Source of the DNA: a virus
Lineage: Duplodnaviria > Caudoviricetes
Virus record (IMG/VR): IMGVR_UViG_3300016265_000371
Location: 1 to 37,319 of that record
Direction: 5' to 3' (one strand)
DNA length: 37,319 nucleotides
A program made the position numbers and the translations under genes. The notes beneath the pieces are model-generated. The model did no database searches. It was not told the origin of the DNA and saw only the letters and a program-made list of their open reading frames with translations. Of the stretch, positions 550-36,728 are shown one piece after another (the first letter of the stretch is position 1; every line of letters begins with the position of its first letter).

Positions 550-819
550 TTACCGTAGGCGCAACGTCAACGGTTGGGCGGTGTGCGCGTCACGTTCTTT
601 CGGGGTCATACCGGCCCACATACCGTTCCGGCGGCCCGCCTCAGCCTCGAACGGCAGCACGAACGCGAGACAGTCAGCTTTGACGGTGCAACCCTCACAG
701 TAGGTGCGGGCCTGCCGCCAATGCCACGTTGAGGAATCCCCCTGTGGAATCTCCGGGAAGAACACCGAGATGTTCACCCCCCGGCAGGCTGCCCGATCAC
801 GCCACGCTTGGCTACTCAT
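550..819 (-). CDS. whiB: WhiB-family transcription factor
   Basis: W-x4-AAC, VFFP, C-x2-C-x5-C and GMWAGMTPKER motifs. Confidence 0.93.
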   Translation of the reverse strand: MSSQAWRDRAACRGVNISVFFPEIPQGDSSTWHWRQARTYCEGCTVKADCLAFVLPFEAEAGRRNGMWAGMTPKERDAHTAQPLTLRLR

Positions 820-1502
820 TTGGGGTTAGCATCGGAACGGCGTTCCGTTTCGAGCTGATCAAGGTACATGTCCATGAATGAGCGTGGCTCAGCATCGGGG
901 TGAGAATCGTAAGGTTGGAACACGCCAGGAACGAAAGCACCCGTCACTGTTGGGGACGGATCACCAGTACGTCCGATTCCGAGTCCTTGACGATTCATCG
1001 CATCCAGTTTTTCGGGGTCACGTAATGCGTTGCGGGTGTCAATGGGGGTGGCATCGGACGGCGGAGCTGGGGGTAGATTCCAGTTTGTTGATGTAGGGGT
1101 GCCTGTCGTTATTTGCATGATGGCTTCACCGATCCATTGTGCGACCGGACTGGCAACACCGTTGCCGCACATTTTGTAGCGGTTCGTGTCCGAGATGGGG
1201 CCGTTGGTTCCGATAGCAGTGTGATCATCGGGCCATCCCATGAGGCGTTCACATTCGATGGGTGTGAGGCGGCGGACCTGCATTGTTGGTTCCATGATGC
1301 AATCTCCTGAGTCAATACCGATACGCAACGCCCGGTACACATCTTCTGTTACGGACTGGTTATAGCCATCAAACGCTATGACGACTGTCGCCCTGGTTTC
1401 ATGAGCATTATCAAACACATTCAATGTTGGTGACACCCCCCCCACAATCCAAGTTTCATAGTCTTGGTCATTCTGTGCGCGGCGAGATTTCGTGAACCAC
1501 AA
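816..1502 (-). CDS. C5 DNA cytosine methyltransferase, C-terminal part (motifs IX-X)
   Basis: RRLTPIECERLMGWPDDHT and RYKMCGNGVA; same frame as the N-terminal part, separated by TGA at 1517-1515; start uncertain. Confidence 0.85.
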   Translation of the reverse strand: MWFTKSRRAQNDQDYETWIVGGVSPTLNVFDNAHETRATVVIAFDGYNQSVTEDVYRALRIGIDSGDCIMEPTMQVRRLTPIECERLMGWPDDHTAIGTNGPISDTNRYKMCGNGVASPVAQWIGEAIMQITTGTPTSTNWNLPPAPPSDATPIDTRNALRDPEKLDAMNRQGLGIGRTGDPSPTVTGAFVPGVFQPYDSHPDAEPRSFMDMYLDQLETERRSDANPK

Positions 1503-1514
1503 GTTTGTTCTCCA

Positions 1515-2531
1515 TCACGTACTGGTTCCCGACACCTTTATAGTCACGGGCTTGGAGTGGACCAACAATGTTTCTGACCCCCCCCCGAGGTCGCCACCGG
1601 ACGCTCGAAGTGTGCCAACACCATCCACGTACCCACCGATGCTCCCAGGGGTGAACGGTACGGCTATTGCCATCCCGTTGCCTTCTCGCCGCGTGGTTGG
1701 GGTGTGTATCTCGGATGGTTGTGCATCAATTCCTTGGGTGTGACTGAACACGATCGGAGACTGTTCAACAACCAAGTTGTATGCCTCGTCACCTGCTGGT
1801 CCACCGGCACCTTTGTGCCATTTCGATGTCACTGTTCCTCGGAGGACTCCATTGTCGTCGGTGTAACCGTGTTGGCTACCTGTTCCAGAGCTGTCTGCAA
1901 CCTCGGCGGCAAAGTCTTCCCGCGCCTGTTTGCCCTTCGCAGAATCCCCTCCGCCGCTTTCGCCGACAACAAGTATTTTGTCGGGACATCCTGCGGCGGT
2001 TGCAGAATCAAAGCAAGAGACGACGAACACACGTCTACGCCTCTGGGGGACTCCGAAGTATTGTGCATCCAGCACGGCCCACTCCGAGAAACACGCCCCT
2101 GCTTCATCCATTTCGTAGAGGACTTCCCCGAAGTCGGCACCTCCGTTGGACGATAAGGCTCCGACAACATTCTCCCAAACAGACCAGGTTGGATACCGTC
2201 CATTGCTCAACTCCCTTAGTTCTTTGATGATTCGAATACCTTCATGGAACAAACCGGATTGTTCACCGGACAGTCCTGCTCGTTTCCCTGCGAGCGACAG
2301 GTCCTGGCAGGGTGAACCCCACGCCACAAGGTCAACACCATCGGTGTGGTCCAAGATGTGCCGCCCGGTGAGGGTTGTGACATCATCCCATTTCGGGATG
2401 TCAGGCCAGTGATGATCAAGGACGGTGCGGGCGTGGCGGTCTATTTCGCATTGGAACACGGTGGTCATGCCCGCCGCTTCGAGTCCCATGTCAAACCCGC
2501 CCACCCCTGAGAACAGGCTGAGAACACGCAT
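1515..2531 (-). CDS. C5 DNA cytosine methyltransferase, N-terminal part (motifs I-VIII plus variable region)
   Basis: LSLFSGVGG, GSPCQDLS, WENV, VPQRRRRVF; ATG at 2531 overlaps the ssb stop (TGATG). Confidence 0.92.
   Translation of the reverse strand: MRVLSLFSGVGGFDMGLEAAGMTTVFQCEIDRHARTVLDHHWPDIPKWDDVTTLTGRHILDHTDGVDLVAWGSPCQDLSLAGKRAGLSGEQSGLFHEGIRIIKELRELSNGRYPTWSVWENVVGALSSNGGADFGEVLYEMDEAGACFSEWAVLDAQYFGVPQRRRRVFVVSCFDSATAAGCPDKILVVGESGGGDSAKGKQAREDFAAEVADSSGTGSQHGYTDDNGVLRGTVTSKWHKGAGGPAGDEAYNLVVEQSPIVFSHTQGIDAQPSEIHTPTTRREGNGMAIAVPFTPGSIGGYVDGVGTLRASGGDLGGGSETLLVHSKPVTIKVSGTST
1829..2203 (-). CDS. Alternative-frame methyltransferase beta-polypeptide (M.EcoHK31I beta-like)
   Basis: +1 frame ORF nested in the MTase gene with NTSESP...SLALIL...KYLLSAKAAEGILRRANRRGKTLP. 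Confidence 0.7.
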   Translation of the reverse strand: MDGIQPGLFGRMLSEPYRPTEVPTSGKSSTKWMKQGRVSRSGPCWMHNTSESPRGVDVCSSSLALILQPPQDVPTKYLLSAKAAEGILRRANRRGKTLPPRLQTALEQVANTVTPTTMESSEEQ

Positions 2532-2944
2532 CAGAACGGTTCTTCGTCCTCGAACGGGGATGCTGCCGGGATAGGTCTGCCGATGTTGCCGACCTGTGCC
2601 ATCACCTTCTCTGACTGGTCCTTCAGGTACACATCCCACCGCAGAGACGGGCCGCACTCATCCACGATGATTTTCGTGGTTTTTCCGGTGGTGCCGTCCT
2701 TCTTGGTGTACTCATCCTGTTCGTAACGGCCCGACACGATAGCGGTCGAACCTTTGCGGAGTGTCGCACAGATGTTTTCTGCGAGCTGACCGAACGCGAC
2801 ACAGTTGTGCCAGGTGGTTTTCTTCTTGTCGTCCTTGCCGTAGGTGTCCGCAATGGAGAACTCTGCGACGGCTTTCCCTGACTGTGTGAACCGGAGTTCG
2901 GGTTCCTTTCCGAGTTTGCCGGTGACGGTGATGTTATTGCTCAT
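2531..2944 (-). CDS. ssb: Single-stranded DNA-binding protein
   Basis: ITVTGKLGKEPELRFTQSG OB-fold start, GPSLRW, acidic EEPF tail. Confidence 0.95.
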   Translation of the reverse strand: MSNNITVTGKLGKEPELRFTQSGKAVAEFSIADTYGKDDKKKTTWHNCVAFGQLAENICATLRKGSTAIVSGRYEQDEYTKKDGTTGKTTKIIVDECGPSLRWDVYLKDQSEKVMAQVGNIGRPIPAASPFEDEEPF

Positions 2945-33080: not shown

Positions 33081-35060
33081 TCACCCAGTCAACATCCACG
33101 AAGGTCGCCACTGGCGCGGGGGGCGTTTCGCCTGAGTCAAATTAGGGATGTTCAAAACCGCCATCCACAAAGCCATCACGATGTCCGTCCCGTTCTTCTT
33201 GTCGCGGGACCATTTGGTGAGTTCGTCGAGGGCGGCGAGGGTTTTCCAGTTGCCCCGCATCGACGGAAACCGCATAGCCCCCGACCTGATCACAGGCGGC
33301 AACAAAGCCTCCACCCCCAGGTTCTCATCCACCTTGTTACGGGTCGTGGTATGCGGAACCACATTCACACGATTCGCGGCCTGCCACTTACGCACAAAAT
33401 CATGTTGCAACAAAAACCGTTGCGCGGCGTTGATTTCCACCACCCAATGACTAATCGGATACCCCATATCGTATGACCGTTCCTGCCATTCGTTCATCAA
33501 CCCCGAATACTCACCGGTCATCGTGTCGTACCCCAACACTTCCTCAGCGGACAGTTTGACCCGTTCCACATCAACCACATGGTAAAGCTTCAAATCAGGC
33601 TGATAGATGATCCACACGAAAGCCCAAAACATTGTGGGGCTGGGGTCAACCGCAACGATAGAAATCCACGGGTGCGCCAACCCCTCAGGGATGTACCCTG
33701 GTTGGCGATCATTGTCGATACAGCCCGGATAGTGAACCCCATCCATACCGGTGCCACCAGTCATCCAGGTGCGGTCAATGAGGCGAGAATCCAAATCAAG
33801 GTCTTCCTGCTGGTACACCACATTGAACACATCAGGTTTTGAGTAGCGAATAAACGACAGGTCTTTCCACGGGAGCCGTTTCGGGTCCAGCAGCGGGCCG
33901 TCAGGATACGGCAAAGCGTTGAACGCCCGCGAAGCTTTCCCCGTATCCAACTCTTCGTAATACGCTTTGTAGATGATGTGGCGATACTTCTTCTGACGGA
34001 CCGGCTGCCCCTCCTGGACATCCTCAGGGGTTTCGACATCCGAGCCGTCATAGTTGATGTCGTCCTCAATGTCATACGTTTCTTTGGCGAGGCAATGCGC
34101 GTACAGGTCACCTGACCCCAACCGCTGCCCCACCACCGCCAACAAACCACCGGGATCGCAACGGGCCTCAGCCACATTGTCCCAACGCTCCAACAACTTG
34201 TCCCTAGCAACAGACTCACGAGCATTATCTGGGGAAGCCACATCGTCAAACAGGCACAGGTCGGCGCGGTGACCAATGAACTCTGCTTCGATACCGTAAG
34301 CCCTCACGGTGGGTTCCTTGTTGTCCAACCCATTGCCATCCAACTGTTCAACAACAAACTCGTCGGCTCGCCACAACGCACCCTTATCCGTCGGGCGGAA
34401 CCTGCCGTAATCCAACGCCAAACACCCCTCCGCGTTCACCGCAATCCCCTTAGCCACCATCATCGGATCAGGCTGAATCGGCTGCACACGCTCAAGTGTT
34501 TCACGAATACGACGGGAATACAACTTCGCCATATTCTGCGACACCGACCCAATCATCACACGAATACGGCGGTTACGGACAATCGCCCACACCGCAACAT
34601 CATGGAACAAGGTCGACTTACCCGCACCCGGAGGCACGTTCAACACAACAAACTCTTTTTCCTCTGACTCCAACAACTCAATCAGCTGATACGCGGCCTC
34701 AACCTGCCACGGAGACGGCACCCTCCCCAAATAGTGTCGCCTGAAGAAGTCGAAATCGTCCAACCCCCTGCGGGCCTCATCACACAACTGATCAACCGGC
34801 ACCACAGACGGCAAATCCGCAGCATCCAACGCCAACTGAAAATCATGCTGCTGACGACCCCCACTCCCTTTACCGCGATTTGCTCGATGCTCCGCCTCCT
34901 CCCGCTGGGCAGCCAACAACTTCGCTTTCTTCACCCAATTCGAACCCGTATTGTAATGAACCCCCGCCTGCCTGGAAGCATCCCTGATCGTATGCCCAGC
35001 CGTCACCAACGCAAAAAACTTTGCTTTGTCAGCAACAGAAACAGCTCGCTTAGTACCCAT
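33081..35060 (-). CDS. terL: Terminase large subunit with N-terminal HTH
   Basis: Walker A VPPGAGKST, Walker B LCLFDD, YQQ, nuclease VAVDPS and D-x2-MALW. Confidence 0.9.
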   Translation of the reverse strand: MGTKRAVSVADKAKFFALVTAGHTIRDASRQAGVHYNTGSNWVKKAKLLAAQREEAEHRANRGKGSGGRQQHDFQLALDAADLPSVVPVDQLCDEARRGLDDFDFFRRHYLGRVPSPWQVEAAYQLIELLESEEKEFVVLNVPPGAGKSTLFHDVAVWAIVRNRRIRVMIGSVSQNMAKLYSRRIRETLERVQPIQPDPMMVAKGIAVNAEGCLALDYGRFRPTDKGALWRADEFVVEQLDGNGLDNKEPTVRAYGIEAEFIGHRADLCLFDDVASPDNARESVARDKLLERWDNVAEARCDPGGLLAVVGQRLGSGDLYAHCLAKETYDIEDDINYDGSDVETPEDVQEGQPVRQKKYRHIIYKAYYEELDTGKASRAFNALPYPDGPLLDPKRLPWKDLSFIRYSKPDVFNVVYQQEDLDLDSRLIDRTWMTGGTGMDGVHYPGCIDNDRQPGYIPEGLAHPWISIVAVDPSPTMFWAFVWIIYQPDLKLYHVVDVERVKLSAEEVLGYDTMTGEYSGLMNEWQERSYDMGYPISHWVVEINAAQRFLLQHDFVRKWQAANRVNVVPHTTTRNKVDENLGVEALLPPVIRSGAMRFPSMRGNWKTLAALDELTKWSRDKKNGTDIVMALWMAVLNIPNLTQAKRPPRQWRPSWMLTG

Positions 35061-35882
35061 CTACACCCAACAGTAGCCCTCATCACAACCACCGTCATTG
35101 AACACCCCATCCAAAGTGTTGAACAAAGTTGGGCCAGCTTCACCAACCGCCTCCCTCAACGGGACACCCTTACGAGTCAAAAACACACGTTGCATCCCAC
35201 GATTATCACGCCTCTCATGCAACTTGTCCTCCAACTGGGCTGCCTTCTCAAACAACTCTGGATCATCACGCCGCAACTCAGACCACACCTGCGAAGAATG
35301 AAACGGACAAAAAAAACACGACGACTTAGGAGGAACAGGCAAACCAGCCTCCCGAATCACCTCAACACAATCATTCCGGTTCAAACCCAAATCAAGCAAC
35401 GGATAAACCCGTTCCTCCCATGCCTGCCCCTTACCTTTCCCTGCCCGTTCAATCTCATCAACCGAAATACCAATACACATCTGAATAGGCCACTCAGACT
35501 TCGGAACAACAGACTTCACATACTTCCCCAAAACCTTGATTTTATGGTCCACAGTACAAGCCCTCGACATCGGCGCACCCGACCAGCCATACACAGGGAT
35601 CGGCTCACGAAGCTTGTCCCCCTCATAATCCATCATGCGCTGCCACAAAGTCTGCGAAGACCCATCCTTCAACGTCCTCTGCAACTCCAACACCTCAAAC
35701 CCGCGTTCAGCAGCCCACGGAACCATCACCTCACGCACAAACCGATTCGTAGCAGGATGCTCCGAATCATCCCCCACATTCGAAAACAACGCGGCCTGCA
35801 CACCAGGAATCTTCCCCTGCGTCGCCAACACAATCATCGCAGTGGACTGAACACCACCACCATACGAAATGAACTTAGCCAC
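35061..35882 (-). CDS. PAPS-reductase-like (PP-loop) protein
   Basis: ISYGGGVQST, C-x4-KI, IGISVDE, YPL, KSSCFFCPF; start GTG at 35882 inferred. Confidence 0.82.
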   Translation of the reverse strand: MAKFISYGGGVQSTAMIVLATQGKIPGVQAALFSNVGDDSEHPATNRFVREVMVPWAAERGFEVLELQRTLKDGSSQTLWQRMMDYEGDKLREPIPVYGWSGAPMSRACTVDHKIKVLGKYVKSVVPKSEWPIQMCIGISVDEIERAGKGKGQAWEERVYPLLDLGLNRNDCVEVIREAGLPVPPKSSCFFCPFHSSQVWSELRRDDPELFEKAAQLEDKLHERRDNRGMQRVFLTRKGVPLREAVGEAGPTLFNTLDGVFNDGGCDEGYCWV

Positions 35883-35948
35883 GAAAACCCCTCTCAAAGT
35901 TTTACGGTTGAAACCTGACACGCACCTTACACCACCATGTACACTCAC

Positions 35949-36250
35949 CACCGCAACTTACAAAGACCGTCTCGCCGGGAGGCAGACACGGCAAGCAAGG
36001 CTGTACACCAGTTGCACGGTGCGGGGCATTTCACACTAGGAAACTAGGGTAGATGTTCCCTGCAACCAACCAGTATCCACGACCGACCCTGGCCCTGTTG
36101 CATAAGAGGAACAAGCAGCGTTCGAGTCAACGACCAAAGACTCAACCATCAAGGTGTCGGCTAAAAGCAACTAGCAACGGCCACCTCAAAGCATCAGGCT
36201 TTGGAAGCGTGGGGGAAGCGAACCCAGGATCGTCGACAAACCGGATCAAC
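35949..36250 (+). ncRNA. Candidate structured non-coding RNA
   Basis: Dense nested stems with GNRA loops on the + strand; no credible ORF. Confidence 0.5.
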
Positions 36251-36468
36251 AACCCCCATCCTCCAAGCGAGCAACTCCCGCGCCTCCGGCTTGCGCTACC
36301 GCCCCTCACTACGTTCGGGTTGGTCTGAGCTGTCCACAGCAGGCCACAACACAACCCCCAGCTGATCACACCCCAAAAGAGTGACACCGTAACTGGACAG
36401 ATATACATATTCCCGGGGGTGGGTGCCTCGGCATACCCCCCGTTGTGGCCTCGCGGGAGCGTGTGCGT

Positions 36469-36496
36469 TTCGGACATAACCGACGTTATGGGCGCA
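36469..36496 (-). other. dif-like XerC/XerD site
   Basis: TGCGCCCATAA-CGTCGG-TTATGTCCGAA, 11-6-11 layout. Confidence 0.6.
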
Positions 36497-36699
36497 TCAG
36501 TCTGACCACGGAGAGTGACCGCCGGCCACCCTGTGTGGTCGATCCTTGCGCGTGAGACACGGGGGCGGGCAGTGTCTCACTTGCGAGACGTGGGGCCGCG
36601 ATAGGTCCGCCTAACTTGTATTGTGCTTGTGTTTCCGGTTGCGGGTGTGTGTGTTGGTGCTTGCTGTGGTTGTGTGTCGGGTGTCACTTTGGTGAGTGC

Positions 36700-36728
36700 T
36701 TGACAACCGTGTCACGGTTCCGTATAGT
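36700..36728 (+). promoter_or_regulatory. Strong SigA-type early promoter with palindromic operator
   Basis: TTGACA-17 nt-TATAGT; AACCGTG-T-CACGGTT at 36705-36719. Confidence 0.85.

What the first reader, a model, noticed from the sequence alone, without database searches (positions are those of the whole stretch)
35949..36250. Candidate novel large structured RNA divergent from the late operon
Seen (+ strand): CACCGCAACT 35949-58 pairs with AGTTGC-AC-GGTG 36010-21, enclosing a GCC-GGGA-GGC hairpin (35967-91). CTAG-GAAA-CTAG lies at 36036-47. Nested stems are TGTTCC/GGAACA (36054/36108), TGCAAC/GTTGCA (36061/36097) and CCAG/CTGG. CGTT/AACG crosses GAGTC/GACTC (36119-36143, pseudoknot-like). 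Further stems are GGTG..GCTA/TAGC..CACC (36153-85) and CAAAGC/GCTTTG (36187-203), then a G-run. GNRA loops read correctly on the + strand, and TACACT at 35940-45 could be its -10. It matches no RNA class I recognise. Inference: a phage ncRNA. Because it points toward the skew switch in a genome lacking replication enzymes, a ColE1-RNAII-like primer is one hypothesis; a packaging RNA or ribozyme are others.
Basis: partly seen in the sequence, partly recalled or inferred. Interest (0 to 1): 0.78.

Follow-up and report, generated by a model that had tools for sequence, protein, structure and literature searches.

The report
New phage RNA, probable replication primer
Lake phages that carry none of the usual enzymes for starting DNA copying share a previously uncatalogued, intricately folded 170-270 base RNA gene beside a probable genome-end signal, and the RNA likely serves as the primer that starts copying of their DNA.

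Summary
The RNA is real and not in Rfam; its job is inferred. 35952-36216 (+) is conserved in 231 distinct viral and metagenome loci. It shows strong base-pair covariation: 15 helix pairs pass a tree-aware null. It has two pseudoknots, a covarying single long-range pair, 52 near-invariant bases, an invariant 3' G-run, a conserved extended -10 promoter (112 of 130 loci) and no conserved ORF. The RNA occurs in two phage lineages with unrelated terminase and capsid proteins, which argues against a motor-specific pRNA. In both it points away from the late operon and ends about 280 nt before a conserved end/pac-like block. None of 35 genomes searched from these two lineages encodes a RecA-type helicase or Toprim primase. 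Best reading (0.45): a cis-acting, ColE1-RNA-II-like primer extended by host enzymes. Against this: the pas-like hairpin is usually on the wrong strand or absent, one helicase-positive sister phage keeps a related fragment, and strand, 3' end and R-loop are unshown. Sister clades hold other unlisted structured RNAs in the same slot.

The parts
35937..35945 (+). extended -10 promoter of the RNA; start site inferred at about 35952-35955
   Evidence: TG(n)TAnnnT-type motif in 112 of 130 homolog loci vs 22 of 137 control windows; RNA-library contigs begin at 35955, 35962, 35964 (weak)
35952..36220 (+). structured noncoding RNA, conserved body (long-arm form A); true 3' end not mapped
35967..35991 (+). 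P0, optional 5' hairpin (35967-70/35988-91 and 35974-76/35981-83)
   Evidence: covaries, 76-90% paired; absent in some homologs
35996..35999 (+). P1 5' strand, pairs with 36208-36211 and closes the core
   Evidence: 103, 104 and 102 of 104 paired at three positions, 59 of 104 at the fourth; little covariation, so inferred
36000..36027 (+). P2 hairpin with internal loop; its terminal loop 36012-15 forms pseudoknot PK1
   Evidence: pairs 36001/26, 36007/20, 36008/19 significant
36033..36050 (+). P3, fixed-length GNRA-capped hairpin
   Evidence: 36037/46 and 36038/45 are the top covarying pairs
36054..36113 (+). P4 arm (long in form A, short in form B)
36115..36143 (+). PK1 partner 36115-18, PK2 (36119-21/36130-32) and P5 (36124-28/36139-43)
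   Evidence: PK1 104 of 104 paired with 12 U-A to C-G swaps; P5 covaries
36153..36185 (+). P6, near-invariant helix with a 2-nt bulge and one bulged base (36182)
36187..36207 (+). P7 hairpin and G36207, which pairs with C36182
   Evidence: this single pair is kept in 225 of 231 loci as G-C, C-G, U-A or U-G
36211..36215 (+). invariant G-run (5-8 G), followed by A in 94%; no conserved C-run partner inside the RNA
36305..36317 (-). DNA mini-hairpin of the tandem-GA type, same class as the motif 150 nt past the ColE1 G-run; accessory
   Evidence: 87 minus-strand vs 2 plus-strand hits in the first 100 nt after the G-run; ColE1 record
36375..36444 (.). conserved DNA block, inferred pac or terminal-repeat boundary
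   Evidence: layout of Streptomyces phage FlowerPower
36620..36690 (.). GT-rich tract beyond the block, mirror of a CA-rich tract before it; resembles the tract inside the 253-bp terminal repeat of FlowerPower
36700..36728 (+). sigma-70-type promoter of the early genes (context)
   Evidence: 11 of 12 consensus match
33081..35060 (-). terminase large subunit with N-terminal HTH (context; divergent late operon)
   Evidence: phrog_38, E 9e-66

Best explanation
This is a new class of pseudoknotted phage noncoding RNA that likely acts in cis as the primer for phage DNA replication, in the manner of ColE1 RNA II. Shown: the fold, the promoter motif, the fixed position and orientation, presence in two unrelated virion lineages, and the absence of detectable primase, helicase, polymerase or initiator genes. 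Inferred steps: host RNA polymerase transcribes it towards the genome-end block; the compact core holds the 3' G-run so that it stays hybridised to the C-run of the template; RNase H or termination gives a 3'-OH; host Pol I extends it; host restart proteins load the host helicase; the phage SSB, exonuclease, annealing protein and RusA then support recombination-dependent replication.
For: (1) No DnaB in 15 of 15 RNA-bearing relatives. No AAA_25, HTH_36, Toprim_2, DNA_pol_A or Prim-Pol in 16 of 16, window included. PHROG/Pfam scans of selected early ORFs from 8 fetched genomes (4 circularly complete) found SSB, exonucleases, RusA, WhiB, methylases, HNH, but no initiator. (2) The same RNA sits in a second lineage with a different terminase, portal and capsid family: 25 of 38 loci scanned. 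Its 19 genomes also lack DnaB, AAA_25 and Toprim. Eight loci of this lineage that have no complete match to the 3'-domain model hold diverged forms at the same place. (3) Spacing from G-run to end block is similar in both lineages: median 282 nt (106 of 122 loci) and 246-312 nt (17 of 17), while spacing to the terminase varies from 189 to 2217 nt. This fits action in cis. (4) The G-run is invariant and has no conserved partner in the RNA. ColE1 has a G6 run at the end of its primer region and the same mini-hairpin 150 nt later. In five diverged lineage-2 loci the hairpin lies on the RNA-sense strand, as in ColE1. (5) Two sister phages with an AAA_25 helicase (L461, L462) have a short slot with no room for a large RNA. 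BF Streptomyces phages, which have primase and DnaB, have no match.
Against: In the window's lineage the mini-hairpin is on the template strand, opposite to ColE1 (87 vs 2), is found in only 68 of 213 loci, and is absent in 15 of 17 lineage-2 loci with the canonical RNA. L457 encodes DnaB and primase yet keeps a fragment like the sister RNAs (E 0.009). L445 has no helicase hit and a short slot (86% complete). 25 of 27 sister genomes lack DnaB, and many were not shown to have any RNA. A small unrecognised initiator protein cannot be excluded. No match in 72,556 plasmids. The DNA after the G-run is C/A-rich on the RNA strand, unfavourable for a long hybrid. RNA-library contigs concentrate on this region, which would suit a stable abundant RNA more than a transient primer, though contigs cannot rank levels. 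The lineages are few, so the correlation rests on few independent events.
Confidence: 0.45

Rival explanations
1. The transcript, or an R-loop it forms, licenses genome-end processing: it would prime duplication of the terminal repeat or mark the concatemer junction for terminase, as transcription does in T7 (recalled, not from a call).
For: It always points at a conserved end/pac-like block about 280 nt away. The nearest cultured relatives have a 253-bp terminal repeat 370 nt upstream of the terminase with a similar GT/CA tract. The window's terminase has T7-like relatives.
Against: The RNA is kept with two unrelated terminases and two different end blocks. BF phages have terminal repeats but no match to the RNA. 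This reading does not explain the missing primase and helicase. Physical ends of these uncultured phages are not mapped; the repeats of the complete contigs are 55-127 bp overlaps elsewhere in the genome.
Confidence: 0.2
2. A ribozyme or other trans-acting RNA (host takeover, anti-defence, protein scaffold) that lies near the genome end only because this is the main noncoding stretch.
For: 52 of 218 columns are at least 97% conserved, with two pseudoknots, a fixed-length GNRA hairpin and a bulged invariant helix, as in catalytic or protein-binding cores. Forms A/B and C reach the same contacts with different topology. RNA-library contigs from four studies cover it.
Against: No Rfam ribozyme matches in the window or in 20 homolog loci. 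Fixed orientation and spacing to the end block in two lineages are not needed for a trans-acting RNA. Inserted genes fall between RNA and terminase, rarely between RNA and block.
Confidence: 0.22
3. A phi29-pRNA-like component of the packaging motor.
For: Adjacent to and divergent from the terminase operon near a genome end; the window's lineage has no separate small terminase gene.
Against: Same RNA with an unrelated terminase, portal and capsid family and with a separate gene in the small-terminase position. RNA forms swap across the terminase tree (14 changes for three forms). No Rfam match.
Confidence: 0.07
4. The structure works as single-stranded DNA (an origin or ssi element), not as RNA.
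For: DNA-type mini-hairpins lie next to it. PMC5737381 notes that covariation cannot easily separate ssDNA from RNA.
Against: Conserved promoter, GNRA loops and many G-U pairs on the + strand, RNA-library contigs starting at the predicted 5' end.
Confidence: 0.04

Closest known systems
ColE1 RNA II primer (NC_001371)
   Same: Origin-proximal RNA in a replicon without an initiator protein; G-run at the end of the RNA region; identical 13-nt mini-hairpin downstream. PMC3167613 (passages seen) describes RNase H processing, Pol I extension and PriA loading at ssiA.
   Different: No similarity of the RNA bodies; less than half the length; pseudoknotted invariant core; hairpin mostly on the other strand; no antisense RNA I seen; in a phage of Actinobacteria.
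MRB plasmid RNA II of Vibrionaceae (PMC3035462, passages seen)
   Same: Protein-free origin built on RNAs, proposed to be convergent with ColE1.
   Different: Plasmid with antisense control; no match in the plasmid collection.
ARRPOF, GEBRO and PAGEV motifs (PMC5737381, passages seen)
   Same: Structured motifs of 223-349 nt tied to replication regions; ARRPOF lies in a region that supports Rep-independent replication.
   Different: Plasmid-borne; no Rfam family matched the window or 20 homolog loci.
raiA, ROOL, GOLLD (large ornate RNAs)
   Same: Similar complexity; raiA has two pseudoknots and optional stems (PMC12968392, part 2 of 6 read); ROOL and GOLLD occur in prophages (PMC5737381).
   Different: No Rfam match. 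raiA P1 joins the two ends and its pseudoknots come from one linker; here they come from a hairpin loop and a junction. Not found in bacterial chromosomes: 1 hit in 185,579 GTDB genomes, an 11-kb contig with the phage terminase.
phi29 pRNA (recalled)
   Same: Phage ncRNA gene near a genome end.
   Different: No Rfam match; occurs with two unrelated terminase-type motors.
Beephvirinae (Streptomyces phage FlowerPower)
   Same: Nearest cultured relatives: capsid 41%, terminase 25% identical, same layout.
   Different: They encode primase and DnaB and have no match to the RNA model.

Membership tests
Any Rfam 15 family | cmscan match at gathering score | tested here: not met
   0 hits in the window, 3 chance hits at E 1-8, 0 in 20 homolog loci at E<=5
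Structured ncRNA | covarying base pairs beyond phylogenetic null | tested here: met
   15 of 19 column pairs with E<0.05 are proposed pairs, the other 4 are neighbours; 94.6% paired vs 33-40% in slid controls
Structured ncRNA | no conserved protein ORF | tested here: met
   no frame open in more than 18 of 118 loci; 0 full-length homologs of either window ORF
Structured ncRNA | transcribed as a discrete + strand RNA | tested here: inconclusive
   RNA-library contigs from four studies cover it, three starting at 35955-64; contigs give no strand, end or level
ColE1-type RNA II primer | sequence or structure homology to RNA II | tested here: not met
ColE1-type RNA II primer | replicon without initiator, primase, helicase or polymerase | tested here: met
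   limited to the families searched
ColE1-type RNA II primer | G-run at the primer 3' region | tested here: met
   5-8 G in all 235 pattern matches, but the pattern required it; also in the 41 blast-found rows except L046-type variation in length
ColE1-type RNA II primer | primosome assembly hairpin on the displaced (RNA-sense) strand downstream | tested here: not met
   template strand in the window's lineage; absent in 15 of 17 lineage-2 loci; RNA-sense in 5 of 8 diverged loci
ColE1-type RNA II primer | persistent hybrid, RNase H cleavage, Pol I dependence | not testable with these tools
   needs bench work
ColE1-type RNA II primer | antisense RNA I control | not tested
   no consensus promoter or terminator on the - strand in the window scan; not searched in homologs
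phi29-type pRNA | tied to one motor and capsid family | tested here: not met
phi29-type pRNA | binds proheads as a ring | not testable with these tools
   needs virions
raiA motif | Rfam match and chromosomal location | tested here: not met
Known ribozymes (group I/II, RNase P, self-cleaving) | Rfam match to catalytic core | tested here: not met
Fremin 2023 candidate viral RNAs | listed among 8,495 IMG/VR candidates (29-151 nt) | tested here: inconclusive
   six motifs not found in the readable files; the files with alignments could not be searched

The most novel reading that the evidence does not exclude
Several lineages of tailed phages have replaced all replication-initiation proteins with compact, ribozyme-like RNAs. 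This family (forms A-D) and the sister families S1 and S2 would be the first phage replicons started by a structured RNA alone, possibly one that cuts itself or nicks DNA to make its own 3'-OH.
Probability: 0.3. Interest if true: 0.95.

Novelty: categorically new. Interest (0 to 1): 0.84.

Why it matters
New RNA classes with several pseudoknots and an invariant core are rare, and earlier ones turned out to be ribozymes or RNA machines. This one is common: about 490 matching stretches are estimated in IMG/VR. It comes with a sharp question: how do complete 38-43 kb phages with no detectable primase, helicase, polymerase or initiator start replication? PMC3035462 (2010, passages) states that RNA-mediated initiation was known only for ColE1-type plasmids before the MRB family. 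A 170-nt minimal natural form exists, so folding, cleavage, R-loop and mini-replicon tests are easy.

Tried and rejected
Rfam scans were empty. blastn against cultured phages and plasmids: no match. Single-sequence folding was not significant and its minimum-energy fold contains the rejected stem. A loop 36012-16 pairing with 36061-65: only 59-65 of 104 paired, replaced by PK1. Protein-coding explanation: rejected. No intrinsic terminator in the window; T-runs within 250 nt in 66 of 149 homologs, so the 3' end stays open. Contig ends did not cluster at one site, so genome termini could not be mapped. Resemblances to group II intron domains I and V, group I P7, RNase P and SRP were considered from memory and dropped: geometry differs and Rfam gives nothing. 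A suspected upstream tRNA in L130/L168 was not confirmed. A possible helicase-loader-like ORF in 3 of 9 genomes scored 0.87 to a cluster with G39P_N in 11% of members: a lead only. One locus search found nothing. Earlier scan findings: none. Sequencing runs with small shares are not used as habitat evidence. Four of 235 pattern matches were dropped as chance (L211, L279, L301, L317). My A/B classifier mislabels at least L020 and L053, and the tree is the quick one. Ten paper searches showed no description of this RNA in their listings; subscription journals are not covered. PMC13236587 passages were not informative.

Full report
Setting. The window is a nearly complete (95%) 37.3-kb tailed phage with WhiB and an Rpf-like transglycosylase, so an actinobacterial host is inferred. 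The late operon runs leftwards from a PAPS-reductase-like gene and the terminase (33081-35060). The finding lies in the noncoding stretch to its right. Nearest cultured relatives are Streptomyces BF podoviruses.

Observation. All quoted strings are present. Folding the one sequence is weak evidence (z -1.46). Eighty terminase relatives were fetched. DNA conservation peaks at 35950-36230 (55 of 80 loci at 36000-36020) while the upstream gene varies. 59 of 80 hold the complete 3' domain; 7 more have partial hits at a contig edge and the other 14 have under 1.9 kb upstream. Pattern scans gave 119 viral and 120 metagenome loci, with about 490 and 470 estimated in all, and one hit in GTDB genomes, an 11-kb contig that also carries the terminase. 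After removing duplicates and four chance matches, 231 loci remain.

Structure. On a structure-blind alignment of 39 long-arm sequences my model is 94.6% paired and 37 of 65 pairs show two-sided changes; slid controls give 33-40%. With 104 sequences (effective number 52) and a parsimony-based tree null of my own, 19 column pairs reach E<0.05: 15 are proposed pairs and 4 are neighbours of them. New contacts are PK1 (36012-15 with 36115-18, paired in 104 of 104, 12 compensatory swaps; its covarying pair alone has E 0.8) and the single pair 36182-36207 (225 of 231). 52 of 218 columns are at least 97% conserved, including helix P6 and the G-run. Forms: A (long P4 arm, the window), B (short arm, about 170 nt) and C (different middle; its loop-to-junction pseudoknot takes many different complementary sequences). 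No ORF is conserved. An extended -10 motif precedes the RNA in 112 of 130 loci against 22 of 137 controls. RNA-library contigs of three studies start at 35955, 35962 and 35964, while a probable DNA run extends to 35923. A fourth RNA study covers 35991-36186 and also 36412-36562. One RNA run also held pieces of neighbouring genes. This is a weak hint only: runs were found with this stretch, and contigs show no strand, end or level.

Context. Of 69 pattern-found loci with up to 2.5 kb of flank, 60 have the window-type terminase upstream on the opposite strand, 189-2217 nt away across all loci. Five of the other nine belong to a second lineage with no match to the window's terminase and with different terminase, portal and capsid families. 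In it 25 of 38 loci match the 3'-domain model, all divergent from the late operon. Eight loci without a complete match carry diverged forms: two with form-B 5' halves and a G-run, six with form-C-like 5' halves and another 3' domain (read by eye and by profile hits of E 3e-7 to 1e-3 for four of them). In both lineages a conserved block follows at about 280 nt, though the blocks differ in sequence. A CA-rich tract precedes and a GT-rich tract follows the block in the window's lineage. FlowerPower has its terminase 624 nt from the left end and a 253-bp terminal repeat with a similar tract. So the skew switch most likely marks the genome end (inference).

Replication genes. None of DnaB (0 of 15), AAA_25, HTH_36, Toprim_2, DNA_pol_A or Prim-Pol (0 of 16 each) is found in RNA-bearing genomes of the first lineage, and none of DnaB, AAA_25 or Toprim_2 in 19 genomes of the second, 11 of them at least 90% complete. 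I scanned 130 selected early ORFs with PHROGs and 30 with Pfam, not every ORF. Among 40 more distant genomes the 3'-domain model found no real hit while 3 of 3 controls hit. 11 of 13 BF-like genomes have DnaB, but only 2 of 27 other sisters do. Two sister groups without these enzymes hold other conserved noncoding blocks in the same slot, with their own promoter motifs: S1 (12 contigs, several covarying helices) and S2 (5 contigs, few informative changes). Neither is in Rfam. Counter-examples are L457 and L445.

The mini-hairpin. A tandem-GA hairpin with DNA-type loops (their stability in DNA is recalled) follows the G-run. The ColE1 record has the same 13-mer 150 nt after its G6 run, on the primer-sense strand; that this is the core of ssiA is recalled, and PMC3167613 gives the role of ssiA but I saw no sequence there. 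In the phage it is on the template strand in the first lineage (87 vs 2; present in 68 of 213), mostly absent in the second (2 of 17) and on the sense strand in 5 of 8 diverged loci. It is therefore accessory and cuts both ways.

Mechanism. Fixed orientation and spacing point to action in cis. Portability across packaging modules and free exchange of forms on the terminase tree speak against a motor part. The missing initiation proteins give a need. I commit to a host-enzyme-extended primer (0.45), with genome-end processing (0.2), a ribozyme or trans-acting RNA (0.22), pRNA (0.07) and ssDNA (0.04) as rivals. The first two could both hold if synthesis starts into the terminal repeat. No step of priming is shown.

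Membership and novelty. It is not a member of any Rfam family, nor a homolog of ColE1 RNA II; it may work like one. Papers: PMC10690425 (passages; three supplement files searched, the alignment files not), PMC5737381 (passages; supplement unreadable), PMC12968392 (part 2 of 6), PMC3167613, PMC3035462 and PMC13236587 (passages); others as search listings only. Ten searches showed no description of this RNA. Fragments could be among the 8,495 unnamed candidates of PMC10690425, which are at most 151 nt long. T7 and phi29 mechanisms are recalled.

Verdict. A real, widespread, apparently undescribed class of phage RNA with a testable link to protein-free replication initiation. Interest 0.84.

Noticed in passing
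L508-L519 (e.g. L439, L442, upstream of the terminase, opposite strand): Sister RNA family S1, about 330-390 nt, with its own promoter motif, covarying hairpins and apparent pseudoknots; no Rfam hit; in four loci followed by the same end block as the window.
   Followed up: partly
L503-L507 (L447, L456, L460, L467): Sister RNA family S2, about 300 nt, followed by the same template-strand mini-hairpin and end block; no Rfam hit.
   Followed up: partly
L574, L584, L587, L588, L596, L599 (1.0-1.9 kb upstream of the terminase): Form D: form-C-like 5' half joined to a different 3' domain with an apparent covarying helix and a G-rich end.
   Followed up: partly
L081, L086, L092, L113, L127 and L523-L602: Second phage lineage: SSB and WhiB genes lie in the same operon as a different terminase, portal and capsid, with the RNA at its head.
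   Followed up: yes
L428:5240-5320 (- strand): After a strong promoter, a short structured leader containing a GAGGAAAGTCC stretch (recalled as an RNase P motif) before an SSB gene; no Rfam hit.
   Followed up: partly
L328:15544-15960 (+): Small ORF in 3 of 9 genomes with a weak likeness to G39P-type helicase loaders and no initiator beside it.
   Followed up: partly
window 35061-35882 and homologs: The slot between terminase and RNA takes many inserted genes (PAPS-reductase-like, methylases, unknowns). In many relatives the first late gene appears to be leaderless, with a TAnnnT motif about 7 nt before the ATG.
   Followed up: no
window 36504-36587: Two inverted repeats (18 and 16 nt arms) between the end block and the GT-rich tract.
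   Followed up: no
L340:254-623 and L341-L418: BF phages have conserved hairpins, a TATATATA run and repeated TGTGA-type palindromes between the terminal repeat and the terminase.
   Followed up: no
L200: The only GTDB hit is an 11-kb contig with this phage terminase inside a Bacteroidota bin, probably a misbinned phage piece.
   Followed up: no
window 816-2657: C5 DNA methyltransferase domains in two overlapping ORFs, with further unannotated ORFs (1781-2227 region) conserved in 3 of 9 genomes.
   Followed up: no
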